Assembly (NCBI GenBank): GCA_025998755.1
Contig: AP024674.1
Coordinates: 1,104,162 to 1,168,161, forward strand
Direction of reading: 5' to 3'
Length of the DNA stretch: 64,000 nt
From: Armatimonadota bacterium
GTDB taxonomy: Bacteria; Armatimonadota; UBA5829; DSUL01
Under the pieces are notes generated by a model. The model saw only the letters and a program-made list of their open reading frames with translations. It made no database searches and had not been told where the DNA came from. Of the stretch, positions 36,393 through 59,809 are shown piece after piece. Every line of letters begins with the position of its first letter. Within the stretch, counting starts at the first letter, position 1. The translations under genes were made by a program, and so were the position numbers.

Positions 36393-38128
36393 CATACCTT
36401 GTATCCATCTCAATCGGGCCAGTACAGGATTTCATCGCGGCGGCCAGGAAGACCCGGGATCTCTGGGCAGGTTCTTATCTGCTCAGCGAGATATCCCGCG
36501 CGGCAGCTCAGGCGCTGGCCGATAAACAGTGCCAGCTGGTCTATCCCTCCCGTGCGACCGTCGTAAATAGAGATCTTTCCATACCTAACAAGATTCTGGC
36601 CATCGCACCGCAGGGTTCCTCTCCGGCAGACCTAGCCAAAGAAGCATCCAATGCCGCCGAGGAGAAATTGTTCGAGTTCCTTGATGCTGCGCTCGAAAAA
36701 GTCCGTACCGAATATCCTGAGATTGATGTAAAAGTCTGTCAAAGCCAGGTTGAGACCTTTTTGGAGCTCTACGCGGCCTGGTGGCCAATGAAGGACGGCA
36801 ATCTCGTGGAAGCCCGCGAACAGGTGGAAGAGCTAATGGCCGGGCGCAAGGCGCTCCGGGACTTCGCACAGTCGGCAAGCAGCGCCGGCGTTCCGAAGAG
36901 CAGCCTGGACCCCGGCCGGGACGCAGTGCTTGATGGCCGTAAGGTTCGGGAACACCGTACGGGACAGGAACATAACCTGGACATCAAGCAAGGCGAGATG
37001 CTGGATGCGATATCCCTCACGAAGCGCTTCGGCCCTGCCCAGCGTTTTGTATCCACCGCGAGAGTTGCCGCCGACCCTCTGATCCGTAGAATGAAAGGAT
37101 CGCCAACTCTGGAGGAGCTGCGGGGACTCGCAGAGGAGATGCTAAAGCAGAAGAGTCAGCTCTGCACATCATTCTCCCCCGAGTCTTTCCCGCAATATGC
37201 TGAGTTCCCGTACGACACATCTCTGTTTTTCAGTGAAGGGCGAGAGGAGGTAGCCGAGGATCCGGCAAAGGACCTGGTCCCAGACTTCACGCATGTGCTG
37301 GGTCGCTTTCTTCGTGATAACGAACTGCCATCTCAGTTGCCAGCCTACTACGCAATACTGGCGGCCGACGGCGACAATATGGGGAAAGTGGTCTCGGAAA
37401 AGGCGTGCTCCGGAGGACTTAAGGAGCTGGAGGAGTTTTCCAAGGTCTTGTCGAAATTCAGCGCGAACGTCCGGGAAATCGTCGAAAACCAGCATAACGG
37501 AGCCCTTGTCTATGGGGGCGGAGATGATGTGCTGGCGTTCCTCCCTCTGGACAGAGCCCTGCCCTGCGCGAATGCTCTCCGGCAGGAGTTCAGCAACTTG
37601 ACTGGGTGCACAATGTCGGTCGGCATCGCGATCGCTCACTACGCTGCCCCGTTGCAGACCGCCGTTCGGTGGGCTCGGGAAGCAGAGCGAGACGCCAAGG
37701 CGCAATCGGGCAAGAATGCGCTCGCCGTCCACCTGCACACGCGCACAGCCGGAGAAGAGCACATCGCGGCCAGGCACAGTTGGGATGATGACCCGGTCAA
37801 CCGCTGGGATCTCTGGACCACGATGCTGGATGAGCGGAAACTCCCATCCCAGGCAGCATATCACTTGCGCCAACTGGCGTGCGAGTTCAACGGGATAATG
37901 GCGAGCGACGTTCTTTACAAGGAGGCTGAACGGATCCTGAAACGCAAGCGCGCGGACTCCGGAACCGAGGAGCTTGACCAGGATGCTGTCGCAAATATTC
38001 TGAGGTTTGCCGGAGGGAAGAACAACATGAGCGCACAGTCCCTTCACGGCGCTGTTAACGAGATCCTGATAGCCCGGAAGATCGTGCCAGCACTAACGTT
38101 GACACGTCAAAAAGGAGAGCAGGAATGA
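36389..38128 (+). CDS. cmr2: type III-B Cas10/Cmr2, short HD-less form
   Basis: GTG start overlapping the cmr1 stop (GTGA). N-terminus TYLVSISIGPVQDFIAAARKTRDLWAGSYLLSEI. Cyclase GGDD motif present (LVYGGGDDVLAFLP). Only 579 aa, and no HD motif precedes the SIGPVQ region. Confidence 0.85.
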   Translation: MTYLVSISIGPVQDFIAAARKTRDLWAGSYLLSEISRAAAQALADKQCQLVYPSRATVVNRDLSIPNKILAIAPQGSSPADLAKEASNAAEEKLFEFLDAALEKVRTEYPEIDVKVCQSQVETFLELYAAWWPMKDGNLVEAREQVEELMAGRKALRDFAQSASSAGVPKSSLDPGRDAVLDGRKVREHRTGQEHNLDIKQGEMLDAISLTKRFGPAQRFVSTARVAADPLIRRMKGSPTLEELRGLAEEMLKQKSQLCTSFSPESFPQYAEFPYDTSLFFSEGREEVAEDPAKDLVPDFTHVLGRFLRDNELPSQLPAYYAILAADGDNMGKVVSEKACSGGLKELEEFSKVLSKFSANVREIVENQHNGALVYGGGDDVLAFLPLDRALPCANALRQEFSNLTGCTMSVGIAIAHYAAPLQTAVRWAREAERDAKAQSGKNALAVHLHTRTAGEEHIAARHSWDDDPVNRWDLWTTMLDERKLPSQAAYHLRQLACEFNGIMASDVLYKEAERILKRKRADSGTEELDQDAVANILRFAGGKNNMSAQSLHGAVNEILIARKIVPALTLTRQKGEQE

Positions 38129-39276
38129 CCACTGTTCTGCTTATCCAGCCGCGTGACCCGCTTCTGTTCCGCGATGGACGCCCCTTCACCGCCGACCCTG
38201 GCGCGATGGCGCGGTCGCTGGACTGGCCGATGCCTTCCACAGTGGCGGGAGCTGTGCGCACGCTGATCGGTAACGCAAACGGGTTCGCCTGGCAGCAAGA
38301 CGGCCCGCATCTGGCCTTGCAGATCCGTATCCGGGGCCCGTTGGCTGTTGTGGAAGGCAAAGACGGAAAGTGCCGCATTTATGTGGCCGCTCCTGCGGAC
38401 GTCCTGTGGTTCGAGGATGGCAAAACATGCGAGGTTCTGCGGCCGCTCAGAACTCTGCCCGAAGGGGCTGGGTGTACGATGCCCGCTGGACTGATGCCGG
38501 TGAGCGTGAGCGCCAGAGAGAAGCCCTACACGCGGATCGCGAGCTGGCCGATGGATTCGATGCTCTCCTTCCTGCTGGAAGGCAAGGTGCCTGATGCGAA
38601 CGAGTGCATTGAGCGCTTCCCGCGGGAGGCTCGCACGCACGTCCGGATGAACGCACAGACTCTAACGGCAGACCCTGGCGGTCTGTTCTCGACGGAGTCG
38701 CTATGCATCCCCGATGTAACGATCCAACGGACAAACGCACGCCGCACCGGCCTGCTTGTTCAGATAGTGTCAGACTGCGACGTTCCCCAGAACTGCTTTT
38801 TCCCGTTGGGCGGCGAACGGCGTGCCGCGATAGCGATGGAAGCTCATGGGCAGTGGCCGGAGCCGCCCGGAGAGTGGGTGGAGAAGCTGGCGAAAACCGT
38901 GTCCGGGAAGAAACGGATCAAGCTCCAGCTGGTAACGCCGGCGGTGTTTGCCAACGGATGGCGTCCGGGTTGGATCGGAGATGACCTGACTGGAACCGTA
39001 CCTGGAACAGGGATCCAGGTGAAGCTTGTCAGCGCGTGCGTCCCCCGCCCTATCGGCTTCAGTGGGTGGGACTACAAAGAGGGCAAACCCAAAGCGGCAA
39101 GCTACGCCGCGCCTGCGGGAAGCGTGTACTTTTTTGAGATCACGGGTGGTGATGTGGATAAGGAGGAACTCGGCAAGTTATTCCTGGCGCCGCTCTGTGA
39201 CGAGTCTCGATTCAGTAACGATGGTTTTGGCCTGGCGTTGCCGGGTATGTGGGATTACGCCGGAGAGGCACAGTGA
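38125..39276 (+). CDS. cmr3: type III-B Cmr3
   Basis: MTTVLLIQPRDPLLFRDGRPFTADPG… is the canonical Cmr3 N-terminus. ATGA overlap with cmr2. Confidence 0.85.
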   Translation: MTTVLLIQPRDPLLFRDGRPFTADPGAMARSLDWPMPSTVAGAVRTLIGNANGFAWQQDGPHLALQIRIRGPLAVVEGKDGKCRIYVAAPADVLWFEDGKTCEVLRPLRTLPEGAGCTMPAGLMPVSVSAREKPYTRIASWPMDSMLSFLLEGKVPDANECIERFPREARTHVRMNAQTLTADPGGLFSTESLCIPDVTIQRTNARRTGLLVQIVSDCDVPQNCFFPLGGERRAAIAMEAHGQWPEPPGEWVEKLAKTVSGKKRIKLQLVTPAVFANGWRPGWIGDDLTGTVPGTGIQVKLVSACVPRPIGFSGWDYKEGKPKAASYAAPAGSVYFFEITGGDVDKEELGKLFLAPLCDESRFSNDGFGLALPGMWDYAGEAQ

Positions 39277-39285
39277 GGAGATCCG

Positions 39286-40197
39286 ATGGGTAACGCGATT
39301 ATTTTCTTCCACGCTCTGACGCCCATTCACACGGGCACTGGGCAGGCGGTGGATGTTATCGATCTGCCGGTTGCCCGCGAGAAGGTGACAGGATGGCCTT
39401 ATATTCCTGGGTCGAGCATCAAAGGAGTCCTGCGGGACGCAGCCGAGAAGGGGGATAAGCACAAGCGGGCCTTCGGACCGGAGACAGAGAACGCGAAGGA
39501 ATCAGCTGGCAACCTGCTGTTCTGCGACGCCAGACTGCTGTGCTTTCCGGTGCGGTCTTTCAGTGGAACCTTCGCGTGGGTGACTTGCCCTTCTGCCATC
39601 ACGCGGCTCAGCAGGGATTGCGCGGCCGCTGGACTCGATGGGCCACCCCCCTTCACACTGCCGGAGAACTGGGAATTCGCCAGCGTCATTACTACTCCGC
39701 AGACCGCACTGCGAACGCAAAGGCAAAAAAATGGGAACGACGTACGCATCATCCTTGAGGAGTACGATCTTACACCCCTGGAGTACGATCTTACACCCCT
39801 GGAAGAGAACATCTCCAAGCTCGCGGACTTCATCGCTGGAAAAGTTTTTTCCGACAGCGCTTCGCGGGAGCATTTCCTGAAACGTTTTGCCCTGGTCCAC
39901 GACGATATGTTCAGCACTCTCACGGAAACTGCCACTGAGGTGGTTGCGCGCATTGCGCTGGATGAGCGGAAAAAAGTGGTCAAACAAGGCGCACTGTGGT
40001 ACGAGGAGGCAGTACCTGCAGAGGCGATATTCGTTAGCCCTCTCATCAACGCGGAGCGGAATCCCGAAGACGACCTGATCGCCGACTATCTCGTCAAGCA
40101 ACGACTTTCCCCGGTGCAGATCGGCGGGAACGCCAGTGTGGGAAGGGGCCTGGTTCGGATCGTGCTGAACGGCTCGGAGCTTAACGGAGGGCAGTAA
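39286..40197 (+). CDS. cmr4: type III-B Cmr4 (Cas7 backbone subunit)
   Basis: FHALTPIHTGTGQ…WPYIPGSSIKGVLRDAAE. Carries an in-frame 21-nt tandem duplication (EYDLTPL x2). Confidence 0.85.
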   Translation: MGNAIIFFHALTPIHTGTGQAVDVIDLPVAREKVTGWPYIPGSSIKGVLRDAAEKGDKHKRAFGPETENAKESAGNLLFCDARLLCFPVRSFSGTFAWVTCPSAITRLSRDCAAAGLDGPPPFTLPENWEFASVITTPQTALRTQRQKNGNDVRIILEEYDLTPLEYDLTPLEENISKLADFIAGKVFSDSASREHFLKRFALVHDDMFSTLTETATEVVARIALDERKKVVKQGALWYEEAVPAEAIFVSPLINAERNPEDDLIADYLVKQRLSPVQIGGNASVGRGLVRIVLNGSELNGGQ

Positions 40198-40198
40198 T

Positions 40199-40645
40199 AT
40201 GAGCAGGCAGCTTGAACTGATGGGTCAGGCTATCGATCACATCAGGGCACAAGAAAACGGGGACGAAGAATTCCGCAGAATCTACGGGGGCCTCTATCAC
40301 AAACTGCCTGTGCTCATCAGGACGTGCGGGCTCTGTCAGGCTCTAGCGTTTGTGAACTCCAAGACACAAGCACAAGGTTCTAGAGGCTCCGCGCACAAGG
40401 CGGTGATGAGTGACGTCACGAACGTCCTGACGAAATTCTGTGGGGTGAGAGTCGCTGAGGACGACAAAGGGGATATCCTGGCCGTGATACGAGAGGAGCT
40501 GCAATCCTGGGAGTATGCTATGGCAACGCGCATCCTCCTGCAGTCTCTGGTCTTTCATAAGCGGTTTGCGGAATCCATCCTCGGAGTCGAGGCCTCGGAC
40601 TACTTGGCCGAGGACGAGCGGGTAGCGGAGATTCAGGTTCAATGA
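40199..40645 (+). CDS. cmr5: type III-B Cmr5 (Cas11 small subunit)
   Basis: 148 aa alpha-helical protein (…FRRIYGGLYHKLPVLIRTCGLCQALAF…) in the position expected for cmr5. Confidence 0.8.
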   Translation: MSRQLELMGQAIDHIRAQENGDEEFRRIYGGLYHKLPVLIRTCGLCQALAFVNSKTQAQGSRGSAHKAVMSDVTNVLTKFCGVRVAEDDKGDILAVIREELQSWEYAMATRILLQSLVFHKRFAESILGVEASDYLAEDERVAEIQVQ

Positions 40646-41688
40646 GGGATGTCCTTTCTAAGTACAAGACCTCCCACGCAGGTCTACTGCTGGAACGGCT
40701 TGTTCCAGACTTAAGCGATTCTTCCACAAAGCCCGAGAAGATCGCTTCGCTGATGAGTACTCTCGAAGACTGGTGCGGCTCCGATGATAACGGGAAACTT
40801 TATCAACACGCATTCAACTCACTCCAAGAGCAGCTCCAGCGCTTGCCGAACATTGTGCTGAAACAACTTAAAGTCACAGACCGGATCATCGTGGGTCTTG
40901 GCGCCGAAAATCCGATGGAAACTTCCATTACCCTGAATCGGTTGTTCGGGGTTCCTATTATCCCCGGATCGGCGTTGAAGGGTGTTGCCCGGAGATATGC
41001 CGAGATGTTCGAACCGGAGGATAAGGAAAGAAAGGGGGATCACACAAAGCAGATCCAGTTCCTGTTCGGCGACGTCAACTTCGGGGGCAGGATCACATTC
41101 TTCGATGCTTGGTGGGTGCCAGACCAACAAGAAAAACCGCTGTGCAAGGACGTGATCACTGTCCATCATCAGGAATACTACAGGACGAAGGGCAAGAAGC
41201 CGCCTACCGACTTCGACGACCCGAACCCCATGAGCTTCGTCAGCGCAAAGGGCACTTTCCTCTTCGCCGTACAGGGGCCTACCAAGGAATGGTCGCAGCT
41301 GGCGATGGCCCTCCTTCAGGGCGGACTCTGTCATCTCGGGGTCGGAGCGAAAACCAGCAGCGGCTACGGAAGGTTCCAGGACGATACGGCGGTGTTCGGT
41401 TCGTCAACGCAATCTGCTGGGCAAGCATCAAGCGCTGAGCCACTTATAGATCCTTCCGCTATGCCCGACGAAGCGCTAAAGACCGCTATTGAGAGTCTCT
41501 CTCGTGCGAATATGAAGGACTTACTACCAAAGTTCGCGGCCCGGTGGGACACCATTCAGAGCGATCACATGAAACGGCAGGTTGGGCAGATCATTAGAGA
41601 GAAATCTCGGATATCAGGTGTGAGCGGCCCATGGCTCAATCCCATCAACAACTTTCTACAAGGAAAGAGACCCAATCGCAGACGGTAG
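40642..41688 (+). CDS. cmr6: type III-B Cmr6
   Basis: RLFGVPIIPGSALKGVARRYAE…GGRITFFDAWWVPD. ATGA overlap with cmr5. Confidence 0.8.
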   Translation: MRDVLSKYKTSHAGLLLERLVPDLSDSSTKPEKIASLMSTLEDWCGSDDNGKLYQHAFNSLQEQLQRLPNIVLKQLKVTDRIIVGLGAENPMETSITLNRLFGVPIIPGSALKGVARRYAEMFEPEDKERKGDHTKQIQFLFGDVNFGGRITFFDAWWVPDQQEKPLCKDVITVHHQEYYRTKGKKPPTDFDDPNPMSFVSAKGTFLFAVQGPTKEWSQLAMALLQGGLCHLGVGAKTSSGYGRFQDDTAVFGSSTQSAGQASSAEPLIDPSAMPDEALKTAIESLSRANMKDLLPKFAARWDTIQSDHMKRQVGQIIREKSRISGVSGPWLNPINNFLQGKRPNRRR

Positions 41689-41709
41689 TGTCGCTAGGTT
41701 ATTACGAAT

Positions 41710-42993
41710 ATGAGGATGGAGGATGGAGGATGGAGGATGGAATCCGCTGTGCAGCCTACAGTCTCTCCCAATGCCACTGAGGAACCTTCAGACCTTACCC
41801 TGCTCACGACGCTCGGCACTGGCAAGTATGTTGATGTGACCTATCAATACGGCCAACAGCAGTTCACCACCAGCCTCGTTCCTGTGGCTCTTGCCGAATG
41901 GTTCAAGCCCACCAAGACGATCGTGCTGTTGACGGAACAGGCAAAGAACTCAGACTACTGGCAATTGCTCAGTAAGAAAGTCCAGAACTGTCAGGAAGCC
42001 AAGATCCCTGAAGGCCGATCTGAGGAGGAATACTGGAAGATATTCGACATCGTTACCTCAGCACTCAGTGGGTCTAAAGAGGTTATCCTGGATATCACGC
42101 ATGGCTTTCGCTCTCTGCCGGTAATTGTTTTGCTGGCTGCTGTGTTCCTTCAAGAAAGCCAGGGGGTGAAGATGAGGCACATCTTTTACGGAGCGTATGA
42201 AGCTCGTGACAAGGACAAAGGAGAGCCTGCGCCCATCTTTGACCTCTCGCCAATGCTTGACCTAGTGCAATGGGCTGTCGCCACTAACCGGTTCCTCGAG
42301 ACCGGAGACGCTCGCAAACTCGGCCACCTTCTTGAGGAGATCCAGCGGAGGTTTTACACATCTGTAGAGGTCTCGGCAGGAAAAGAGCCGCCAAAGCAGC
42401 TTCAATCTGCTGGCCAGGCACTGTCTAAACTGTCCCAAGCCATCGATCTTGTCCGCCCTGCCGACATACGCGAATACAGTCAGAAACTTATGGAAGAGCT
42501 GGTCACGGCAAAAACAGAGATCCAACTATTCGCCCGCCCGTTCGAACTTGTGCGGGAACACGTTCAGGCCGAGTTCGGAGGTTTGAAGCAGGGTGATCTT
42601 GCCTCCCAACGGGATCTCATCAAATGGTATCTGGATCATGGTCGTATATTGCAGGCAATGATCTTTGCGAGGGAATGGGTGATATCTTGGACGGCTGAGG
42701 CCATCAACCGCGGGGACCTGAAAGACCGTGAAAGCATTGAGCACGCGCTGAATCAGGTGATTCACCGGAGTGAAGGACGTGACCCAACCAAGGCAAAGGA
42801 CATTGACCCAGACATCGTGAAAAGCGTGAACGACTTGGAGGCGAGGGAGCAGCTGAAGGATATCTGGAGTGAGCTGGGAGGCTTGCGCAATGACCTTGCC
42901 CATTGTGGTTTCCGCAAGGACCGCAGAAAAGTGAACAGGCTGCCTGATCAGGCCAAGGAGATCTACTGTCTTCTGAGGGAGCTGGAGTGTTGA
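41710..42993 (+). CDS. csx1: Csx1 family CARF-HEPN protein (DxTHG motif)
   Basis: CARF signatures TLGTGKY and DITHGFRSLP. C-terminal HEPN R-x4-H motif (RNDLAHCG). The more likely start is the in-frame ATG at 41737 (MESAVQ), preceded by an (AGGATGG)4 repeat. Confidence 0.75.
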   Translation: MRMEDGGWRMESAVQPTVSPNATEEPSDLTLLTTLGTGKYVDVTYQYGQQQFTTSLVPVALAEWFKPTKTIVLLTEQAKNSDYWQLLSKKVQNCQEAKIPEGRSEEEYWKIFDIVTSALSGSKEVILDITHGFRSLPVIVLLAAVFLQESQGVKMRHIFYGAYEARDKDKGEPAPIFDLSPMLDLVQWAVATNRFLETGDARKLGHLLEEIQRRFYTSVEVSAGKEPPKQLQSAGQALSKLSQAIDLVRPADIREYSQKLMEELVTAKTEIQLFARPFELVREHVQAEFGGLKQGDLASQRDLIKWYLDHGRILQAMIFAREWVISWTAEAINRGDLKDRESIEHALNQVIHRSEGRDPTKAKDIDPDIVKSVNDLEAREQLKDIWSELGGLRNDLAHCGFRKDRRKVNRLPDQAKEIYCLLRELEC

Positions 42994-43367
42994 CTGTTCT
43001 CAACTTTTCCCACCCCCTCACTCAGGAACAGCTGCAGCAGATTGAGGCTATTTCGGGTGAGCCAATATGTGACGTGCGGCAGATCCCTTGCCAGTTCGAC
43101 CATATGCAGGGTTTCGCGGAGCAGACGCGAGCCCTAGTAGATGCGGTGGGGCTGGGCCCGGAGGAGTGGCAGACACTCCCAATTCTCGTAAACCTTCCCA
43201 CCCACCACGTTATTGCGGCTGCTGTTGTGGCAGAGATCCAAGGTCGGGTGGGATACTTACCCGCCGTGCTGCGCCTTCGTCCTGCCGGCAACAGCCTGCC
43301 GCGCTTTGAGGTCGCCGAGATCCTGAATCTGCAGGCAGTGCGCGAGACTGCTCGCCTGTCAAGGTAG
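42987..43367 (+). CDS. small CRISPR-associated accessory protein, possibly DUF1874 (Crn2/AcrIII-1-like ring nuclease) family
   Basis: 126-aa ORF with GTG/TTG start overlapping the csx1 stop. TVLNFS…L beginning, a central …LVNLPTHHVIAAAVV… His-containing segment and an E-containing C-terminal helix (FEVAEILNL) loosely match the DUF1874 pattern. Assigned from memory only. Confidence 0.3.
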   Translation: MLTVLNFSHPLTQEQLQQIEAISGEPICDVRQIPCQFDHMQGFAEQTRALVDAVGLGPEEWQTLPILVNLPTHHVIAAAVVAEIQGRVGYLPAVLRLRPAGNSLPRFEVAEILNLQAVRETARLSR

Positions 43368-43465
43368 CCAGGTCATATTCTCCAGCTTTTCAGAGCATCC
43401 ATCTGGTGTCCCTGGACAATGCGGAGGTTCCCCCTGCCGACTGACAACTATCAAGGAGCCGCCTG

Positions 43466-43726
43466 ATGCTCGCAGCGTTCGATATTCGACTCAATCCGGC
43501 AGATGATGCGCTGCTTCCCCACCCCTGCGGGCACCAGGTGCACGCGGCTCTGCTCGCTGCGGTCAATCGAGTTAATCCCGAGCAGGCCAGGGCGTTCCAT
43601 AGCGATGCGCAGGTAAAGCCATTCGCCATTAGTGCGCTCTCTGGCCCCGCATCCGCATCCGGGGGACCACGTTGGAGGTGCCCAGGGACACTGAATGCCG
43701 CGTGCGCCTCGTCACCAACGCCTTAG
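43466..43726 (+). pseudogene. cas6: Cas6 N-terminal remnant (truncated)
   Basis: FDIRLNPADDALLPHPCGHQVHAALLAAV…FHSDAQVKPFAISAL matches the Cas6 N-terminal ferredoxin-fold pattern (…HD…KPFTFS.L). It then degenerates into low-complexity P/S/A/G sequence and a TAG stop. No glycine-rich loop or C-terminal domain. Confidence 0.5.
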
Positions 43727-43768
43727 GGCAATCATCCCTGGGGCGACGGCTGGTCGAAAAGGATTCCG

Positions 43769-44860
43769 ATGGCAGAGGCGCGGAAGGAAAATCGTGACAT
43801 GAGAGACCTCATCGTAACCGTGGGAACATCGCTACTCGGCAACTGGCGGGGATCCAACCGTACACAGGAACATCGTGCGGAGGATCTTCCAGACTGCCAG
43901 ACTCTCTTGGATTGGGTCGGCCAGCAGCCTCCCGAAAAGGCCTCTGCAGAGACCCACACGCTTTTCCGGCTTCCGCTTGAAGCAGACGACAGAATTCACC
44001 TTCTACACAGCAGCACAGAGGAAGGGCGGCTCTGCGCGCACGCGCTAGAACGCCATTTTTCACCCCGGTGCCGCGAGTGCAGATTTGTGGAGATAAGATA
44101 CCTGTCCTACAGCGAGCCGCACTTTAGGGACCGCGGTCTTCGAGAGCTGCTATCTGAGGCGTTCAAGATTATCCGGGAGGCCCGGCGCAAAGGCCGCAGC
44201 GTAGAGATCTGCGCCACCGGTGGTTTCAAGCCCGAACTTGCCTATCTCAATGTGGCAGGGCTGCTGGCAAAATGCCCGGTCCACTACGTCCACGAGCGCT
44301 TCGCGAGTCTGATCACCCTGCCTCCGCTGCCGGTGGACTGGGCAGTGAATCTCGACGAGCAAAGCATTGAGTTCCTGCAATGGCTGGACTCCGGTTTCAG
44401 GAATGAGCAAGAGACAGAAGCCCGTCTGAAACAGCTGCCCCACCTGCGTTCACTGGTCTCCTTCGACGACGAAGGATGTTCTCTCTCTCCTGCCGGGCTT
44501 GCCCTGTTGGAGGCGTGGCGCGAACGGACCGGCTTCATACCCGAAGTCCACCTACCCCACTCCGGAAAGGCGGCTGCTGAGAAGATCGACCTCAGCAAGG
44601 AGCCCCATCACCGTCCGTCCGGGTTCGATAAATATCGGGACCGCATTGCAAACTTGGATTTTGTAACGCAGATCTTCTATCGCGGTGGCCTGCCAGCGTG
44701 CGAGAAAAGCGTCGCCGTTTTGAACGCTGCTGAGGGCAGTCTTCGCGTGCGTCTTTCCGACGGAGACTATGGCATCGAACTTATTGTTCACACCACCGCA
44801 ACGGATGACGCTGGGGCGGAGTTAGCGGCGAAGCTGGTTCGCGAAGCTTTGGATAACTGA
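43769..44860 (+). CDS. CARF-domain protein with uncharacterised C-terminal domain
   Basis: CARF signatures DLIVTVGTSLLGN and ICATGGFKPELAYLNVAGLL (Csm6/Csx1-like). The ~180-aa C-terminal half has no HEPN R-x4-6-H motif or any other motif I recognise. Confidence 0.6.
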   Translation: MAEARKENRDMRDLIVTVGTSLLGNWRGSNRTQEHRAEDLPDCQTLLDWVGQQPPEKASAETHTLFRLPLEADDRIHLLHSSTEEGRLCAHALERHFSPRCRECRFVEIRYLSYSEPHFRDRGLRELLSEAFKIIREARRKGRSVEICATGGFKPELAYLNVAGLLAKCPVHYVHERFASLITLPPLPVDWAVNLDEQSIEFLQWLDSGFRNEQETEARLKQLPHLRSLVSFDDEGCSLSPAGLALLEAWRERTGFIPEVHLPHSGKAAAEKIDLSKEPHHRPSGFDKYRDRIANLDFVTQIFYRGGLPACEKSVAVLNAAEGSLRVRLSDGDYGIELIVHTTATDDAGAELAAKLVREALDN

Positions 44861-44982: not shown

Positions 44983-47190
44983 ATGCTCGTGATCACCGGC
45001 CTCGAAAGGCCGGTGCAACATCCCGGTCCACGTCTGTCTGTGAATGTTTCTTCTTGTTTCAATCCTCACCGGCCTCGAAAGGCCGGTGCAACTTTCAGCG
45101 TGTCCCGGTCAATACTGGTCCTCTTCGTTTCAATCCTCACCGGCCTCGAAAGGCCGGTGCAACATTCCGAGTGGGCGTGGCGGGAGCTGCACTCCCGCAG
45201 TTTCAATCCTCACCGGCCTCGAAAGGCCGGTGCAACGAGCCTCTGGGGAGAAGGGCCCCGACAGACCTAAAGTTTCAATCCTCACCGGCCTCGAAAGGCC
45301 GGTGCAACGACGTTCTCGCCATACAGTCTGGCGGGAATCAGCGTTTCAATCCTCACCGGCCTCGAAAGGCCGGTGCAACGTGTGAAGACAACGCAAATAG
45401 GGCCGTTGTTCGACGTTTCAATCCTCACCGGCCTCGAAAGGCCGGTGCAACGGGAAAGACGCCGACTTCCATATCAAGGATTTCTGCGTTTCAATCCTCA
45501 CCGGCCTCGAAAGGCCGGTGCAACGTCGAACAGGCCGGGGGTACCGGAACTTCTTGTGCGGGTTTCAATCCTCACCGGCCTCGAAAGGCCGGTGCAACCG
45601 CCTGCGCGCATGCGCGCGCGTGTCGCGGCCTACGACGTTTCAATCCTCACCGGCCTCGAAAGGCCGGTGCAACAGCCGCACACTCGTGTATGGAAGTCGG
45701 ATTTCGTTGTTTCAATCCTCACCGGCCTCGAAAGGCCGGTGCAACGGCGGCCGGGGATATCAGTACGAGGTCGGCTGCTCGTTTCAATCCTCACCGGCCT
45801 CGAAAGGCCGGTGCAACAGGATAGGAGGTACCTACATGGAACAGGCAATCACGTTTCAATCCTCACCGGCCTCGAAAGGCCGGTGCAACTCCAAGCTGTA
45901 CGAAGAGCTTCTTTCGAGGAAGTGTTTCAATCCTCACCGGCCTCGAAAGGCCGGTGCAACTTTTCGCCTGCCGGGCCCCGTGAAAGCGCGACCAGGTTTC
46001 AATCCTCACCGGCCTCGAAAGGCCGGTGCAACGAGGATATCGTTACGCACATATCCAAGCTGTACGGTTTCAATCCTCACCGGCCTCGAAAGGCCGGTGC
46101 AACGTCGCCGCGGGCGACGTGGGCTCGGCGGCTGCGCGGGTTTCAATCCTCACCGGCCTCGAAAGGCCGGTGCAACGCCCGCGGGCAGTACAAGTACGAT
46201 TACGCCCACACGGTTTCAATCCTCACCGGCCTCGAAAGGCCGGTGCAACTTCAACTAGCTAGTACCAAGGAGGTTGCGATGAAGTTTCAATCCTCACCGG
46301 CCTCGAAAGGCCGGTGCAACGCCCCGTGAAAGCGCGACCAGGAGACTGAGGCATGAGTTTCAATCCTCACCGGCCTCGAAAGGCCGGTGCAACTGTCTGC
46401 TCCCCGTCCGCAGGGGCGGGGATAGATGTTTCAATCCTCACCGGCCTCGAAAGGCCGGTGCAACACTGCGAAGCCGTACAGCTCACGAACTGCACGCTCG
46501 TTTCAATCCTCACCGGCCTCGAAAGGCCGGTGCAACCGAGTTGCAGCCGTCATGGCGCCGTGGTGATGTGGTTTCAATCCTCACCGGCCTCGAAAGGCCG
46601 GTGCAACTGATGAATTCGCCTCCGAGGCGAATCCAGCCCATCCTGTTTCAATCCTCACCGGCCTCGAAAGGCCGGTGCAACGCCTGATCCTTCTGCGCGG
46701 CGTAGCACGCCGCGCAGTTTCAATCCTCACCGGCCTCGAAAGGCCGGTGCAACCCTGCTAGCCGTAGGGGGGCGCGCCCCCCCCTACGGGTTTCAATCCT
46801 CACCGGCCTCGAAAGGCCGGTGCAACGGCGGCCGCAGGGGGGCGGCCGCAGAGCGGCCGCAGGTTTCAATCCTCACCGGCCTCGAAAGGCCGGTGCAACG
46901 CAACCGCCATTGTGGCAGGCGCCATCCTGGACATGGTTTCAATCCTCACCGGCCTCGAAAGGCCGGTGCAACGAATCAACTAGCTACTACCGAGGAGGAT
47001 ACGATGAAGTTTCAATCCTCACCGGCCTCGAAAGGCCGGTGCAACTTGCTTGGGCGTCATCGTTATCACCGGCGCCCAAGGTTTCAATCCTCACCGGCCT
47101 CGAAAGGCCGGTGCAACCGTGCGACGTGTGCAATTACTCCAGACCATTTTGTCGTTTCAATCCTCACCGGCCTCGAAAGGCCGGTGCAAC
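44983..47190 (-). CRISPR. CRISPR array 1 (30 full repeats plus 1 degenerate terminal repeat, 30 spacers)
   Basis: 37-nt repeat, read on the + strand as GTTTCAATCCTCACCGGCCTCGAAAGGCCGGTGCAAC. This is the reverse complement of the array-2 repeat, so the array appears transcribed on the - strand from the cas2 side. Spacers are 33-36 nt. The degenerate repeat at 44983-45019 sits at the leader-distal end. Confidence 0.95.
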
Positions 47191-47408: not shown

Positions 47409-47705
47409 CTAGACGATCATCGGCGCATCAGGATCCACGTAACGGTCCACGCCGTAGGTCTCCACGCAGCGTTCGCGTCCGCCAGGCAGGCGATAGATGC
47501 GGATGCTATCCTTCTCAGGATCAATGATCTTCAGCAACTTGGCCCGTAGCCGCTCCAATTCCCTCTCGTTCAGGCGGCATTCGAAGACAGAATACTGGAC
47601 GCGCTGCCCGAAATTCACACAAGCTTTCGATGCCCTGCGCAGGCGTTTCTGGCCCGCCGCGTCTTCCGTGTTCACATCATATGAGATCAGATAGTCGTCT
47701 CGCAT
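47409..47705 (-). CDS. cas2: Cas2
   Basis: Start ATG 47705 (MRDDYLISYDVNTEDAAGQKRLRR…VQYSVFEC). 10-nt gap after the cas1 stop. Confidence 0.85.
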   Translation of the reverse strand: MRDDYLISYDVNTEDAAGQKRLRRASKACVNFGQRVQYSVFECRLNERELERLRAKLLKIIDPEKDSIRIYRLPGGRERCVETYGVDRYVDPDAPMIV

Positions 47706-47715
47706 AGTAGCCTCT

Positions 47716-48762
47716 CTAGCGAGGGATAAAGGGGGTATAGAACGGGATATCACCCCGCAGGCAACGGGCCAGGATCCTCGCCTGCAGATGAGGGACTACC
47801 CCTAGTGGTACGCGAGTCTTCAGCATGGGATGGGATACCTCGGTCTGCTTCCGCGTCTGGTAGGCGACCACCACCTTTTTACGCCCATCCTCATTCAACA
47901 AAACTGCGCCACCAGGCCTCTCGCGAAAGTCTTCGGGACCGATCTGCTTGCGGTTGATCAGCGTCAGCGCCAAGCGGTCTGCAAAGGGTGCGCGGAACTC
48001 CTCCATCAGGTCCAGAGCCAACGCCGGCCGCCCTGGCCGGATGGCGTGAAGAAACCCGAACTGCGGATCAAGTCCCACCCCTTCGCAGGCCGCGCGGCAA
48101 TCGTTCACCAGCAAGGCATACAGGAAAGAGAGAAGAGCATTTACGCGATCCTTTGGCGGTCTGCGGCTCCGGGAGTCAAAGCGGAAGTCCGTCCGTTGCT
48201 GGGTGATAAGGGAATCGAACGCCTCGAAATATGCCGCTGATCCGTGTCCCTCGGCTCCTCGCACGGCATCGAGCGAGCGTGCTTCCTCCAGGCTTTTCAG
48301 CTGACCGGCAACAGCCTCTGCCGCCCTGGAGAGGGCGGCCACCGCTTCCTTTGCCCTTTGTCCTTCCCCGGCTTCGCGGATGGCCCGGTTCAATACTCCT
48401 CTGCAGTTCTGAAGCTTCCCTGCAACAATGCAACGGGCCACAGCTGCAGCGGCTGACTCGTCCCGGTGCGTCTCATACTGGGCCTTCCGGAGCAGCACAT
48501 TCCCGCTTGTGGCCCCTTCCACCCGTGCCAGAAAGCGGCCGTTCACGTCCATAAACGTTACCGCCCGGCCATCCTCGGCGCACCGATGCATCAGGTAAGG
48601 GCTTACTGTCACCAAGCCGAAAGTCACGATGGCGCCAAGGTGATGCAGAGGGGTCTGCTTGAGCCTCTCGTCCTTTAGATCCACCCGGACCGTGTCTCCG
48701 TCCAGGTGCACGTAGGCTCCCTGCGTGAAGACGTAAAGCGTGTTCAGCAGCTCGGTGGTCAC
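47716..48762 (-). CDS. cas1: Cas1
   Basis: 348 aa. Cas1 N-terminus NTLYVFTQGAYVHLDGDTVRV and conserved core. Confidence 0.9.
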   Translation of the reverse strand: MTTELLNTLYVFTQGAYVHLDGDTVRVDLKDERLKQTPLHHLGAIVTFGLVTVSPYLMHRCAEDGRAVTFMDVNGRFLARVEGATSGNVLLRKAQYETHRDESAAAAVARCIVAGKLQNCRGVLNRAIREAGEGQRAKEAVAALSRAAEAVAGQLKSLEEARSLDAVRGAEGHGSAAYFEAFDSLITQQRTDFRFDSRSRRPPKDRVNALLSFLYALLVNDCRAACEGVGLDPQFGFLHAIRPGRPALALDLMEEFRAPFADRLALTLINRKQIGPEDFRERPGGAVLLNEDGRKKVVVAYQTRKQTEVSHPMLKTRVPLGVVPHLQARILARCLRGDIPFYTPFIPR

Positions 48763-48790
48763 GTCTTGGAGAGTCCTTTCCCACCCTTCG

Positions 48791-49441
48791 TCAATCGAGA
48801 CCCTCGCCCTCGCGCGGGACGAACAGTGGGTGCTCTCCCCGGCTTTGCTGCAGATAGTCTATCAGTCCGGGTTGGCAGACCTCAATCAGCGAGCAATCCG
48901 GGCAACGCCGGTCGTTTACCGGCGGGGGCGTGCAAGCGGTCGCCAGCATCTGGCGGATGCAGAAAATGGTTTGTTCCGTAAATGCACGCAGTTCAGCGTC
49001 CAGATGCACTTCCTGCCTCCGGCGTGAGCCGCGATAGTAGATGGCCGCGCTCGGAATGCCAACACCCAGCATCTCTTCCAGACACATGGCCTGCGCGCAC
49101 ACCTGCGCCATGTCGTTCAGTTTGCCTAGCCGGTAACGGCGGCCATGCTTGTATTCCACCGGTACCACACGGCCGTCCGGCCAGAACTCAACCACGTCGG
49201 CCACGCCGGAGAGTCCCAGCCGGCGGCTGTAAAGGGGCAGCGCGAACTGTACCACCACACCAGCCTCGACCTCGTGGCCGGCCTCGTGGATCTCCTCGTG
49301 CTCGCGCCGCCCCTTCAGCGTGAAGACGTTGTCCTCGAAGATGTCCTCCAGGTGGATAAGCGCGCACCGGCGTGGACAGTAGCACCAGTGCGAGATGGCG
49401 CTCACCATTACCAGTTCATCTTCGGGCCAATCGCCGTCCAT
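48791..49441 (-). CDS. cas4: Cas4 (RecB-like nuclease with Fe-S cysteines)
   Basis: ISHWCYCPRRCAL… and C-terminal CPDCSLIEVC cysteine cluster. Confidence 0.85.
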   Translation of the reverse strand: MDGDWPEDELVMVSAISHWCYCPRRCALIHLEDIFEDNVFTLKGRREHEEIHEAGHEVEAGVVVQFALPLYSRRLGLSGVADVVEFWPDGRVVPVEYKHGRRYRLGKLNDMAQVCAQAMCLEEMLGVGIPSAAIYYRGSRRRQEVHLDAELRAFTEQTIFCIRQMLATACTPPPVNDRRCPDCSLIEVCQPGLIDYLQQSRGEHPLFVPREGEGLD

Positions 49442-49449
49442 CGAGTCCC

Positions 49450-50427
49450 TTACAGCATCTCGAGGACTTCCACCCCCGCCGGAACGCGCTCCTTATGGAT
49501 TTCCACCGCAAAGTCGGAGAACTTGCGCGGTGGCCTGGTCGGATCCTTCTGCCAGACGCGCACAATGGCTTTCCCGTCGTCTTCCGCGCCCCCCAGGTCC
49601 AGGAGCCGATGCGCCGGAGCGCAGCCAAGTTTGGCCTGCCGCTCCCGCTGAGCGGGATCGCTGTCCGTGCCGACGTGCCGGAACACCACCAGCTTGCGCG
49701 CTGACATGGTCCCTTTGCTGGCGCTACGGTCGTGGTCGTACATGTTCAGCAACGCTTCCCACAGGAGTTGCAGGTCCTCCTCCGTGAAGCCTGTCCCTTC
49801 CGCCAGATGAGCACTGATGAAGCCGTTAGCGCAATAAAGGCCATACGGGATAAGGGCTTTTCGCCCCATAGTGCGCAGCTGGTCTTCCGGCTGCTCTTTT
49901 TCCCACTTCAGGTAGTCCTCGCTGGACTTCGCTTCGCGCACGTCCTCAGCGACAGCCATCCTGGTGACGGAGGCATCAAGCGGCAGGATCGGATGCAGCG
50001 AACGTGCGAACGAAAGCTGGACCGGTCCGCGCACCTGACCCGCATTCGGGCCTGTGCTCATAACCGCCCCCAACGCGCGCACATCGTAGAAGTTCTGACA
50101 CATCCATCTGCGCGCCAGCTCCACCTTGTCCTTGCCAACTCTGGCACCCGGCTGAAAGCCGCCTTCCGTCTTCTCGTGGGCCATCACGATGGGACGGTTC
50201 AGATTGGTGGCGTGCTCCACGAAGATGCAGTAGGGAGCCTGATTCCCGCGGGCGATCTGCACGTAGTTGCGGATCCGCCGCTTCAGCGCCACATCGGACA
50301 CCAGACCGTGCATATCCTCAGGGTCCACCCGGGGCGCGTTCCCCGCATCGGGATCTCCGTTGGGATTGCCGTTCTCGCAGTCAAACAGATACAGAAACTC
50401 GTAGCGATTCTTGATGACGTCAGACAT
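49450..50427 (-). CDS. cas7: type I-C Cas7 (Csd2)
   Basis: Start ATG 50427 with [38 protein letters not shown] is the Csd2 hallmark. Confidence 0.9.
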
Positions 50428-52165: not shown

Positions 52166-52877
52166 GTCTTCCCTCCTTCGGCGGTTTAAGCACCCGGTCC
52201 GACTCAAACGGCGGCACCTCCAGCACTCCGCCTTTCACCTCCGCCTCAAACAGCGTGATGAACGGCCGGTCCGTGGACTCCCCCGGCCGCGAGAGGTCGA
52301 ACACGTCGTAGAGCATCCATCCGATACGCGCATCCACCTGCGCTGGAGGCGGCCCCGTTTCCCCGTGATCCAGAAGACGGAAGAAAGCCGGGAACTCCCT
52401 GCAGCCCAGATAGGGCTGATAGAAGCACTTCCCGCTTCCTGCAATGCGCCGGAACTTCGCCTCCATCTCCACAACACGGTCCTCGAAGCCCGGCCAGGGC
52501 CGCACTTCGGCGTGGATGCGGTAGCGGACGTTCTTGAGCGCCATGGTCTGGCGTTGGGTGTTCGCCTCCTCTCCGGCCCCGGCCAGAATGGTCTGCGGCG
52601 GTGCGCTTCCACTCATCCACTGTCCGATCGTCCGGTCGGTAGGCGCCTTGCACTTGACCTCGTTGCGCCTCAAAGCAATGAACCGCGGCGGCTCAAGCAT
52701 CTCGATCTGCACAATCTGCCAGCGGTATTCGTGCCGGTTGACGCAGATGGCATCGAAGATGCCACGGGCCGCCGACGGCGTGATGACGGGGTAGCTGAAG
52801 CGCTCCACCTTCAACTCAGGACGGGTGAAACAGGCCAGTGCCCCCCAGACTTCAATGGTCTGACGCGATGGCGTCAT
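52158..52877 (-). CDS. cas5: type I-C Cas5c (Cas5d, pre-crRNA processing subunit)
   Basis: IEVWGALACFTRPELKVERFSYPVITPSAARGIFDAI… is the Cas5d N-terminus. Confidence 0.85.
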   Translation of the reverse strand: MTPSRQTIEVWGALACFTRPELKVERFSYPVITPSAARGIFDAICVNRHEYRWQIVQIEMLEPPRFIALRRNEVKCKAPTDRTIGQWMSGSAPPQTILAGAGEEANTQRQTMALKNVRYRIHAEVRPWPGFEDRVVEMEAKFRRIAGSGKCFYQPYLGCREFPAFFRLLDHGETGPPPAQVDARIGWMLYDVFDLSRPGESTDRPFITLFEAEVKGGVLEVPPFESDRVLKPPKEGRHA

Positions 52878-52990
52878 CTTTCACCTCCCTTCAGGCGATC
52901 AGAACCTGCGACTCTGCCGGCACCACCAGACCGAGATCGGTCTCCCGGTCGTAATGGTCCGGTTCCAGATAGATGAACCACTCGCTGGAA

Positions 52991-59714: not shown

Positions 59715-59809
59715 CGGACTGAAGATCTGACAGAAAAGCAGCATATACCGCTTGGGGATAGGCTGGATTCCTGCTTGATGAGCATTGCCGACAAAGACGG
59801 GGTTTAATT

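What the first reader, a model, noticed from the sequence alone, without database searches (positions are those of the whole stretch)
43466..43771. Cas6 remnant: the only Cas6-like sequence is an 86-aa N-terminal stub, in frame with the downstream CARF gene across a single TAG
The peptide FDIRLNPADDALLPHPCGHQVHAALLAAV…FHSDAQVKPFAISAL is a typical Cas6 N-terminus, but the ORF then degenerates and stops at 43724-43726. The reading frame stays open from that TAG to the ATG of the CARF gene at 43769.

No intact Cas6 exists in the window. The I-C system processes crRNA with Cas5d, but the III-B complex normally needs Cas6-generated 8-nt 5' handles (AUUGAAAC here). Either Cas6 is encoded elsewhere, or Cmr accepts Cas5d-processed 11-nt-handle crRNAs, or the III-B module is crRNA-starved and decaying.
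Basis: partly seen in the sequence, partly recalled or inferred. Interest (0 to 1): 0.55.

Follow-up and report, generated by a model that had tools for sequence, protein, structure and literature searches.

The report
Dead cas6 gene in CRISPR locus
The short reading frame is the wreck of a cas6 gene, which normally encodes the enzyme that cuts CRISPR RNA for the neighbouring type III-B defence complex: 170 internal codons are missing and 2 bases have been inserted, while close relatives still carry the intact gene at the same spot.

Summary

- **Deletion.** Window 43466-43797 is a cas6 pseudogene. Syntenic contigs from related Armatimonadota have the same gene order (cmr1-6, csx1, csx15, cas6, CARF gene) and the identical 37-nt repeat. 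They carry an intact 279-aa Cas6 that is about 92% identical to the stub. The window keeps codons 1-81, a 15-nt junction and the last 23 codons. It has lost 510 nt in frame, including the whole PF10040 C-terminal domain.
- **Frameshift.** A related genome assembled from a metagenome (MAG) carries the same deletion as an open 109-aa reading frame. The window also has a 2-bp CT insertion at 43637-43642. This insertion creates the "degenerate" tail, the TAG stop and the in-frame relation to the CARF gene, which is therefore incidental. The CARF gene probably starts at 43799.
- **No other cas6.** No other Cas6-like sequence was found in the 64 kb.
- **State of the neighbouring systems.** The type III-B genes are all intact. 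About 11 nonsense mutations would be expected under neutral decay, and none is seen. Intact cas6 in sister lineages is under strong constraint (dN/dS 0.13). The Cmr complex therefore probably still receives crRNA, either from an unlinked Cas6 or from Cas5c-processed type I-C transcripts. This could not be resolved here.

The feature itself is an ordinary pseudogene, but the natural pair of lineages with and without cas6 is useful.

The parts
43453..43458 (+). AAGGAG ribosome-binding site, 7 nt upstream of the cas6 ATG. It is retained, so the 86-aa peptide may still be translated.
   Evidence: Read directly from the sequence. Conserved as AAGGAA in the intact locus L009.
43466..43710 (+). 5' remnant of cas6: codons 1-81 (beta1-alpha1-beta2-beta3 of the N-terminal ferredoxin-like domain), interrupted by a 2-bp insertion.
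   Evidence: About 92% amino-acid identity to intact Cas6 P0023. DNA alignment to L009 and L015. Profile A6 E=1.8e-23. Secondary structure taken from the AlphaFold model of P0023.
43637..43642 (+). (CT)3 run. Relatives have (CT)2 here, so one extra CT unit has been inserted. This shifts the frame and creates the aberrant tail and the TAG.
   Evidence: Alignments A1 and A4 and the global alignments. A second assembly of data from the same sample (L004) is identical.
43711..43725 (+). Deletion junction. GTCACCAACGCC is a possible 12-nt island matching intact codons 107-110 (VING) at 10 of 12 positions, in frame. It is followed by TTA.
   Evidence: Global alignments. The junction sequence is identical in the window and in L001. 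A match this good somewhere within the 510 deleted nt has roughly a 2-5% chance, by my own estimate.
43724..43726 (+). TAG that ends the 86-aa ORF. It lies out of frame relative to the ancestral gene.
43726..43797 (+). 3' remnant of cas6: the last 23 codons (GQ of the G-rich loop, the last strand and the disordered tail ...AEGKS) plus TGA at 43795-43797. In the window it is in the +1 frame relative to the ATG.
   Evidence: 13 of 23 residues are identical, without gaps, to the P0023 C-terminus. BLAST places L009 position 10769 at window position 43726. Profile hit in this frame.
43799..44860 (+). CARF gene (Cas_APE2256 family, possible ring nuclease or effector). The probable true start is ATG 43799; the longest ORF starts at 43769.
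   Evidence: Pfam PF09651 E=2.7e-27 and NCBIfam TIGR02619. M1 of the homologues in L006 and L007 aligns with MRDLIVTVGTS at 43799. GGAAGGA lies 10 nt upstream.
34938..41688 (+). Type III-B effector genes cmr1, cas10/cmr2 (GGDD present, no HD domain), cmr3, cmr4, cmr5 and cmr6. All are intact.
   Evidence: NCBIfam hits. GGDD at residue 377. dN/dS of 0.13-0.6 against relatives.
41710..43367 (+). csx1-like CARF gene (TIGR02221) and csx15, immediately upstream of the cas6 remnant.
   Evidence: The same pair precedes intact cas6 in L009-L014.
45056..47190 (-). CRISPR array 1: 30 perfect copies of the 37-nt repeat GTTGCACCGGCCTTTCGAGGCCGGTGAGGATTGAAAC, read on the minus strand, with the leader on the cas2 side.
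   Evidence: The repeat folds into a 9-bp stem with a UUCG loop and an 11-nt 3' tail.
47409..55222 (-). Complete type I-C operon: cas3, cas5c (52158-52877), cas8c, cas7, cas4, cas1, cas2.
   Evidence: NCBIfam hits. cas2 ORF.
56508..59721 (+). CRISPR array 2: 45 perfect copies of the same repeat, inverted relative to array 1.

Best explanation
Window 43466-43797 is a cas6 pseudogene that decayed where it stands.

**Shown.**
- The ancestral gene encoded a 279-aa, type III-associated Cas6 endoribonuclease of the Thermus TTHB231 kind. It sat between csx15 and the APE2256 CARF gene, at the 3' end of a cmr operon that adjoins a type I-C system and uses its arrays.
- One ancestral event removed 510 nt (170 codons) in frame. 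It may have been two nearby in-frame deletions. The loss covers helix alpha2, most of strand beta4, the entire C-terminal RRM domain (PF10040) and most of the G-rich loop.
- What remained was a 109-codon ORF made of codons 1-81, a short junction and the last 23 codons.
- In the window's lineage a CT unit was then added to a (CT)2 run. This shifts the frame and yields the 86-aa ORF, its nonsense tail and the TAG.

**Inferred.**
- The product lacks the RNA-binding half of Cas6, so it cannot be a working Cas6 endoribonuclease. The frame match to the CARF gene has no function.
- The type III-B module is still maintained by selection, so it still obtains crRNA without this gene.
- My rough split of the possible sources is: Cas5c-cut type I-C transcripts, with or without 5' trimming from 11 to 8 nt, about 30%; an unlinked Cas6 elsewhere in the 3.29-Mb chromosome, about 30%; a host RNase, about 10%; the module is actually silent, about 15%; the rest undetermined.
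For: **Homology to Cas6.**
- P0001, the 109-aa relative of the stub, matches the N-termini of 260-290-aa proteins that all carry PF10040.
- The corrected stub is about 92% identical to intact Cas6 P0023 and about 89% to P0021.
- The AlphaFold model of P0023 (pLDDT 84.6) matches T. thermophilus Cas6 TTHB231, entry 4C9D, at E=3.9e-23 and TM 0.78-0.84.
- The only hit of a PDB sequence search with P0001 is the same protein.

**Decay in place.** Loci L009-L014 have cmr1-6, csx1, csx15, a 99-nt gap, intact cas6 and the APE2256 CARF gene. They also have the identical 37-nt repeat and type I-C genes next door.

**Anatomy of the deletion.**
- Global alignments define what is kept and what is lost.
- PF10040 covers residues 143-258 of P0023, entirely inside the deleted part.
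- No C-terminal Cas6 sequence exists anywhere in the window.

**A single old event.** The junction is identical in the window and in L001-L003, which come from other samples and differ by about 6% in nucleotide sequence.

**Frameshift.** A 2-bp insertion is present relative to all five relatives.

**Relaxed constraint on the remnant.** Window-specific changes in codons 1-81 are about 5 nonsynonymous to 2-3 synonymous. The intact pair shows 4 to 19 (Fisher p=0.014-0.027).

**Cas6 matters in sister lineages.** dN/dS is 0.13 for L009 versus L015.

**The type III-B module is maintained.**
- All ORFs are intact, with dN/dS 0.13-0.31 for cmr2-6 and the CARF gene.
- About 11 nonsense mutations would be expected in 9,426 nt at the window-specific divergence of the stub, and none is seen (P about 2e-5, or 0.008 at the lower bound).
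- Cas10 keeps its GGDD motif.

**The repeat is a type I-C substrate.** It forms a hairpin with an 11-nt tail ending in AUUGAAAC.
Against: - The 109-aa ORF is open in the L001-L003 lineage, the deletion is in frame, and a good ribosome-binding site is kept. A residual role for a mini-protein is therefore not excluded.
- The 2-bp insertion is seen only in data from one sample. The window and L004 are 100% identical, which points to the same sample.
- The locus is a recombination mosaic: nucleotide identity to L001 runs from 40% to 94% along the operon. The "no nonsense mutations" argument could therefore be weakened if intact cmr segments were re-imported from lineages that still have cas6.
- The rest of the chromosome could not be searched, so nothing here shows how Cmr is loaded.
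- In T. thermophilus HB27, Cas5c products serve only the type I-C system and type III needs a Cas6 (PMC12102369). This argues against the Cas5c route as a general rule.
Confidence: 0.88

Rival explanations
1. An unlinked Cas6 elsewhere in the 3.29-Mb chromosome processes these repeats for Cmr. On this view the local cas6 became redundant and was lost.
For: T. thermophilus HB27 type III interference depends on cas6-2, a gene far from any CRISPR locus (PMC12102369). Sharing of one Cas6 between type I and type III-B systems is documented (PMC11127173; PMC12814883). The type III-B genes look selected.
Against: No second cas6 and no second repeat type occur in the 64 kb. Cas6 enzymes are usually repeat-specific (general knowledge), and the enzyme that evolved alongside this repeat is the one that was lost. 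In sister lineages with the same repeat, the local cas6 is under strong constraint (dN/dS 0.13). This suggests those lineages have no redundant copy.
Confidence: 0.3
2. Cmr is loaded with Cas5c (Cas5d)-processed crRNAs from the type I-C arrays. The 11-nt 5' handle is either tolerated or trimmed to the 8-nt AUUGAAAC tag, so Cas6 is dispensable.
For: The only arrays present are type I-C substrates with a hairpin and an 11-nt tail, and the last 8 nt are the canonical type III tag. cas5c and the whole type I-C operon are intact. The type III-B genes stayed intact after cas6 was lost. [quoted passage not shown]
Against: My literature searches found no experimental precedent. [quoted passage not shown] Cas5 normally stays bound to the 5' handle inside Cascade (general knowledge). 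Sister lineages keep cas6 under selection even though they have cas5c.
Confidence: 0.3
3. The type III-B module is starved of crRNA and is simply at an early stage of decay.
For: Its dedicated processing gene is destroyed. dN/dS is rather high for cmr1 (0.60), and for csx1 and csx15 (0.62-0.65), in the low-divergence comparisons.
Against: There is no stop codon or frameshift in 9.4 kb, where about 11 nonsense mutations are expected. dN/dS is 0.13-0.31 for cmr2-6 and the CARF gene. The deletion is old enough to be shared by two diverged, recombined lineages, and both have intact cmr operons. The 330-nt remnant itself has already picked up a frameshift.
Confidence: 0.15
4. The truncated product (109 aa in L001-L003, 86 aa here) is a functional mini-protein. 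It could act, for example, as a regulator or a dominant-negative Cas6 N-domain.
For: The deletion is in frame. The ORF is open in three assemblies. The ribosome-binding site is kept. The conserved His45 and Lys51 of the alpha1-beta2 motif are retained. L001-specific changes in codons 1-81 are 1 nonsynonymous to 3 synonymous. A Cas6 with a regulatory role is known in Thermus.
Against: The window's copy is frameshifted and shows relaxed constraint. Helix alpha2, most of strand beta4 and the whole second domain are missing, so a stable fold is doubtful. A deletion is in frame one time in three by chance. The L001-L003 proteins are identical, so they give no independent evidence of conservation.
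Confidence: 0.06
5. The frame match across the TAG is functional: stop-codon readthrough would yield a Cas6N-CARF fusion.
For: Only the in-frame arrangement itself.
Against: In relatives without the 2-bp insertion, the remnant is in another frame and ends in TGA 1 nt before the CARF ATG. The CARF homologues start at the residue that aligns with 43799. The 30 nt between 43769 and 43799 differ by nonsynonymous changes between the window and L001. A frame match arises one time in three by chance.
Confidence: 0.01

Closest known systems
Thermus thermophilus Cas6 TTHB231 (Cas6B; PDB 4C98/4C9D) and the Pfam PF10040/PF19308 Cas6 family
   Same: The intact orthologue P0023 has this fold (Foldseek E=3.9e-23, TM 0.78-0.84, 30% identity) and this domain content. 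The stub aligns to the N-terminal beta1-alpha1-beta2-beta3 part, including the LH...KPF..S motif.
   Different: The window's copy lacks residues 82-106 and 111-256 or so, including the whole C-terminal RRM domain and most of the G-rich loop. It is also frameshifted. It is a pseudogene, not a working member of the family.
Sharing of crRNA or of one Cas6 between type I and type III-B systems (Pyrococcus furiosus, Sulfolobus islandicus, Marinomonas mediterranea; PMC11127173, PMC12814883)
   Same: A type III-B module with no adaptation genes of its own sits beside a type I system and its arrays, and all arrays share one repeat.
   Different: In the known cases a Cas6 does the cutting. Here the partner is a type I-C system, which has no Cas6, and the type III-linked cas6 is dead.
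T. thermophilus HB27 cas6-2, an orphan cas6 far from any CRISPR locus that is required for type III interference (PMC12102369)
   Same: It shows that a type III system without a local cas6 can depend on a distant one.
   Different: In HB27, type III uses its own repeat type, and the Cas5c-processed type I-C array is not used by type III. Here only repeats of the I-C type are visible.
Moraxella bovoculi, type I-C plus type III-B with no cas6 reported (PMC12827968)
   Same: The same pairing of systems and the same missing gene.
   Different: That paper gives no evolutionary trace of a former cas6 and does not examine crRNA supply. Here the loss is caught in the act, with sister lineages that still have cas6.
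Synechocystis subtype III-Bv, where crRNA is matured by host RNase E without Cas6 (Behler et al. 2018; recalled from memory, not checked here)
   Same: A Cmr-type system that works without Cas6.
   Different: No evidence for RNase E sites or involvement was sought or found here.

Membership tests
Cas6 endoribonuclease (PF10040 / PF19308; TTHB231-like) | Homologous N-terminal ferredoxin-like (RRM) domain with the conserved His/Lys motif | tested here: met
   Codons 1-81 are about 92% identical to intact Cas6 P0023. Profile A6 gives E=1.8e-23. H45, P52, S56 and L58 are conserved. Only beta1-alpha1-beta2-beta3 are kept; alpha2 and most of beta4 are missing.
Cas6 endoribonuclease (PF10040 / PF19308; TTHB231-like) | C-terminal RRM domain with the glycine-rich loop (PF10040), needed to bind the repeat RNA | tested here: not met
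   PF10040 covers residues 143-258 of P0023, entirely within the deleted segment. No match to profile positions beyond 83 exists anywhere in the window.
Cas6 endoribonuclease (PF10040 / PF19308; TTHB231-like) | Uninterrupted reading frame of about 240-290 codons | tested here: not met
   The ORF is 86 aa. The frame-corrected remnant is 109 aa, against 279 aa in the orthologues.
Cas6 endoribonuclease (PF10040 / PF19308; TTHB231-like) | Located in a CRISPR-cas locus, at the position held by cas6 in orthologous loci | tested here: met
   L009-L014 and L015 carry intact cas6 between csx15 (or the Cas02710 gene) and the APE2256 CARF gene.
Cas6 endoribonuclease (PF10040 / PF19308; TTHB231-like) | Cleaves the CRISPR repeat to leave an 8-nt 5' tag | not testable with these tools
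   This needs biochemistry or small-RNA sequencing.
Type III-B (Cmr) effector module | cmr1, cas10/cmr2, cmr3, cmr4, cmr5 and cmr6 present and intact | tested here: met
   NCBIfam equivalog hits above cut-off for Cmr1-6. All ORFs are full length.
Type III-B (Cmr) effector module | Cas10 cyclase GGDD motif and HD nuclease domain | tested here: inconclusive
   GGDD is present at residue 377. No HD domain or motif is found in the 579-aa protein, so only the signalling branch is expected to work.
Type I-C CRISPR-Cas | cas3, cas5c, cas8c and cas7 present, no cas6, plus cas4-cas1-cas2 | tested here: met
Type I-C CRISPR-Cas | Repeat forms a hairpin followed by an 11-nt 3' tail ending in ATTGAAAC (the Cas5d substrate) | tested here: met
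   9-bp stem, UUCG loop and 11-nt tail, -18 kcal/mol, z=-3.8. That Cas5d cuts at the base of the hairpin is general knowledge and was not tested here.

The most novel reading that the evidence does not exclude
In this Armatimonadota lineage the Cmr (type III-B) complex is loaded with crRNAs cut by the type I-C enzyme Cas5c rather than by Cas6. That would make Cas6 dispensable and explain its loss. The sister lineages share an identical repeat, type I-C system and cmr operon, and differ in having cas6 intact or deleted. They would form a natural experiment for a Cas6-independent route from type I-C to type III.
Probability: 0.28. Interest if true: 0.7.

Novelty: new member of a known kind. Interest (0 to 1): 0.35.

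Why it matters
On its own this is a routine pseudogene, and the main practical gain is a corrected annotation:
- the cas6 remnant spans 43466-43797;
- the CARF gene probably starts at 43799;
- the match in reading frame has no meaning.

The context is worth more than the remnant. The same III-B/I-C hybrid locus, with one repeat type, exists with cas6 intact and under strong constraint, and with cas6 destroyed. In the destroyed version the Cmr genes still look selected.

How type III systems without a Cas6 obtain guides when their only partner is a type I-C system, which has no Cas6, has not been settled experimentally as far as I could find. These paired alleles supply ready-made constructs to test it: Cas6 P0023, the window's Cas5c and Cmr1-6, and one 37-nt repeat.

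Tried and rejected
**Searches that gave nothing or little**
- NCBIfam scans of the stub, raw and frame-corrected, gave no hit even at E<=10.
- My first frame correction placed the shift a few residues too late. It still retrieved P0001, which fixed the true junction.
- The word-indexed protein search with the stub alone found only itself and P0001. The intact orthologues appeared only after the exhaustive search and a profile search.
- The genome-contig scan with the CARF protein found nothing. The scan with A5 returned 80 Cas6 loci, but the best is only 52% identical (L017, Armatimonadota). The species with the intact orthologue is therefore not among the GTDB representatives.
- The exact deletion-junction pattern is absent from the JGI metagenome contigs.
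- No sigma-70-like promoter lies in 42900-45100, and terminator-like sites are at background level. Rfam finds nothing in the region.
- Literature searches for Cas5d- or Cas5c-fed type III systems found no direct precedent.

**Readings considered and rejected**
- Readthrough fusion with the CARF gene: the frame match is not conserved.
- Duplication remnant of a nearby intact copy: no such copy exists, and the synteny shows decay in place.
- Assembly artefact for the deletion: it is present in four separate assemblies.

**Not possible with these tools**
- Scanning the rest of the 3.29-Mb chromosome for another cas6.
Full report
**1. The observation**

The ORF at 43466-43726 (86 aa) is real. It starts MLAAFDIRLNPADDALLPHPCGHQVHAALL and ends at TAG 43724-43726. 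The same frame runs open to the ATG at 43769. AAGGAG lies 7 nt upstream of the start codon.

- cmr1, cas10/cmr2, cmr3, cmr4, cmr5 and cmr6 at 34938-41688;
- a csx1-like CARF gene at 41710-42993, and csx15 at 42987-43367;
- the stub, then a Cas_APE2256 CARF gene;
- CRISPR array 1 at 45056-47190, with 30 repeats;
- a complete type I-C operon on the minus strand at 47409-55222 (cas3, cas5c, cas8c, cas7, cas4, cas1, cas2);
- CRISPR array 2 at 56508-59721, with 45 repeats.

Both arrays use one 37-nt repeat, GTTGCACCGGCCTTTCGAGGCCGGTGAGGATTGAAAC. It folds into a 9-bp stem with a UUCG loop and an 11-nt 3' tail. By general knowledge this is the layout of a Cas5d substrate. Its last 8 nt are AUUGAAAC.

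**2. Is it Cas6?**

Library profiles alone are weak. Pfam CRISPR_Cas6_N gives E=5.7e-4 and 20.5 bits, below the gathering score, although residues 9-59 match profile positions 9-59 in register. NCBIfam finds nothing.

The protein search found P0001, a 109-aa ORF from another Armatimonadota MAG. It matches the stub and then continues in the window's +1 frame.

An exhaustive phmmer search with P0001 found 260-290-aa proteins whose N-termini match it (P0003: E=8.6e-21, 52% identity over residues 1-95). All of those tested carry the PF10040 Cas6 domain.

A profile search then found intact Cas6 proteins whose first 81 or so residues are about 92% (P0023) and about 89% (P0021) identical to the corrected stub.

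The AlphaFold model of P0023 (pLDDT 84.6, pTM 0.83) matches T. thermophilus Cas6 TTHB231 (4C9D) with E=3.9e-23 and TM 0.78-0.84. The only hit of a PDB sequence search with P0001 is the same protein.

A profile built from intact proteins only (A6) hits the window's six-frame translation in two places. One is 43445-43723 (E=1.8e-23, profile positions 1-60). The other is 43633-43794 in the +1 frame (E=4.1e-9, positions 57-83). It hits nowhere else.

**3. What happened to the gene**

Six contigs (L009-L014) carry P0023 in a locus fully syntenic with the window. The order is cmr1-6, csx1, csx15, a 99-nt gap, cas6 (279 aa), then an APE2256 CARF gene overlapping the cas6 stop. An array with the identical 37-nt repeat follows, and then cas3 and cas5d.

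Global DNA alignments show what the window keeps:
- cas6 nt 1-243 (codons 1-81) at 43466-43710;
- a 15-nt junction at 43711-43725, whose first 12 nt match codons 107-110 of the intact gene at 10 of 12 positions, in frame;
- the last 23 codons plus TGA at 43726-43797, of which 13 of 23 residues are identical to the P0023 tail, ending in the same AEGKS.

The loss is 510 nt, or 170 codons, in frame. It covers helix alpha2, most of strand beta4, the whole C-terminal RRM domain (PF10040, residues 143-258) and most of the G-rich loop.

The junction is identical in L001-L003, which come from other samples and in which the 109-codon ORF is open. This points to a single ancestral event.

The window also has (CT)3 at 43637-43642 where all relatives have (CT)2. 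This 2-bp insertion produces the "degenerate" tail and the TAG. It also puts the 5' part in the same frame as the CARF gene.

In L001 the remnant ends in TGA 1 nt before an ATG. That ATG aligns with M1 of the CARF homologues and corresponds to window position 43799. The frame match is therefore incidental, and 43799 is the likelier CARF start.

L004, a second assembly that is 100% identical to window 34308-45085, shows the same insertion. The identity points to the same sample. The source MAG was built from PacBio HiFi reads (PMC9671151).

**4. Evolutionary signals**

- **Intact cas6 is constrained.** L009 versus L015 gives dN/dS 0.13 over the whole gene and 0.06 over codons 1-81 (4 nonsynonymous to 19 synonymous changes).
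- **The window's remnant is relaxed.** Its lineage-specific changes in the same codons are about 5 nonsynonymous to 2-3 synonymous (Fisher p=0.014-0.027).
- **The locus is a mosaic.** Nucleotide identity to L001 runs 94, 83, 91, 78, 73, 66, 40, 94 and 86% from cmr1 to the CARF gene.
- **The upstream module has been swapped.** L001 has a Cas02710 CARF gene in place of csx1 and csx15, with the homology break exactly at the cas6 start. L015 shows that same architecture with an intact cas6. The first 100 nt or so of the L001 remnant are identical to L015. The upstream module was therefore exchanged by recombination after the deletion.
- **The type III-B genes look maintained.** All are full length, with dN/dS 0.13-0.31 for cmr2-6 and the CARF gene. 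Cas10 keeps GGDD but has no HD domain.
- **Decay test.** Suppose the 9,426 coding nt had drifted neutrally for as long as the window-specific divergence of the remnant, which is 8 changes in 243 nt. About 11 nonsense mutations would then be expected (4.8 at the lower 95% bound). None is seen (P about 2e-5, or 0.008 at the lower bound). Recombination that re-imports intact segments is the main caveat.

**5. Mechanism**

Shown: the gene is dead as an endoribonuclease, and no other Cas6-like sequence lies in the 64 kb.

Inferred: Cmr still receives guides. The candidate sources are as follows.
- **An unlinked Cas6.** The precedent is T. thermophilus HB27 cas6-2, which lies far from any CRISPR locus and is required for type III interference (PMC12102369).
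- **Cas5c-cut type I-C transcripts.** The repeat has the hairpin and 11-nt tail, and the 8-nt tag is embedded in that tail. [quoted passage not shown] No experimental precedent was found, and in HB27 Cas5c serves only type I-C.
- **A host RNase.** This is the Synechocystis III-Bv precedent, recalled from memory and not checked here.
- **Silence.** Early decay is possible but disfavoured by section 4.

The chromosome outside the window could not be searched. The organism is MAG KatS3mg024 (mg024), class-level clade UBA5829, from Katase hot spring sediment, with a 3,289,812-bp contig.

**6. Comparison and verdict**

The remnant belongs by descent to the Cas6 family of the PF10040 / TTHB231 type. 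It fails the defining features of a working member, because the C-terminal domain and an intact frame are both missing. It is a cas6 pseudogene.

Pseudogenes in cas loci and type III modules without cas6 are both known, so the feature itself is ordinary. What is useful is the natural pair of sister loci, with and without cas6, that share one I-C-type repeat.

Interest is 0.35. The most novel reading not excluded is Cas5c feeding Cmr, with a probability of about 0.28.

Noticed in passing
window 47409-59721 compared with L009 13243-20838: The type I-C operon and both leaders are inverted in the window relative to the syntenic contig L009. There, cas3 and cas5d follow the array on the plus strand. 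The two window arrays are inverted copies of the same repeat and flank the operon, so recombination between the arrays could flip it.
   Followed up: partly
window 41710-43465 compared with L001 7066-8355 and L015 711-2000: The accessory module differs. The window and L009 have a csx1-like gene (TIGR02221) plus csx15. L001 and L015 have a single Cas02710 CARF gene. The homology break lies exactly at the cas6 start codon. Both architectures occur with intact cas6 and with deleted cas6.
   Followed up: partly
window 34240-34328 and 62062-62133: tRNA-Ser(tga) lies just upstream of cmr1, and tRNA-Met(cat) lies just beyond the far end. The whole 28-kb CRISPR-Cas cluster therefore sits between two tRNA genes and may be an island.
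   Followed up: no
window 59810-62102: GC content drops to 0.47 at 60-61 kb, against about 0.6 around it. This stretch holds a 258-aa ORF (59810-60586) with an N-terminal hydrophobic segment and no Pfam hit. The next ORF (61077-62102) has a low-complexity N-terminus and an NVPFGDYP stretch that resembles motif IV of N6-adenine methyltransferases. A degenerate repeat copy with 4 mismatches lies at 61047-61083.
   Followed up: partly
window 39759-39803: A perfect 21-nt tandem duplication inside cmr4 encodes EYDLTPL twice. Window Cmr4 is 303 aa, against 288-289 aa in relatives.
   Followed up: no
window 41712-41741: The heptamer GAGGATG is repeated 4.3 times at the annotated start of the csx1-like gene. 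Another gene call for the identical sequence starts later (418 aa instead of 427 aa), so the true start is probably downstream.
   Followed up: no
window 36389-38128: Cas10/Cmr2 is short (579 aa). It has no HD nuclease domain but keeps an intact GGDD cyclase motif. Together with two CARF genes and csx15, this suggests a type III-B system that relies on cyclic-oligoadenylate signalling only.
   Followed up: partly
window 43769-43801: The CARF gene is annotated from ATG 43769 (363 aa), but homologues begin at the residue encoded at 43799. A GGAAGGA ribosome-binding site precedes that ATG, and the 30 nt between the two start codons are not conserved at the protein level.
   Followed up: yes
window 34938-36392: cmr1 is 94% identical in nucleotide sequence to L001 but only 57% to L009. 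The reverse pattern holds for cmr6 and csx1. The operon is a recombination mosaic.
   Followed up: partly
window 16445-16584: A TPP riboswitch lies on the minus strand (Rfam RF00059, 67 bits), unrelated to the CRISPR region.
   Followed up: no
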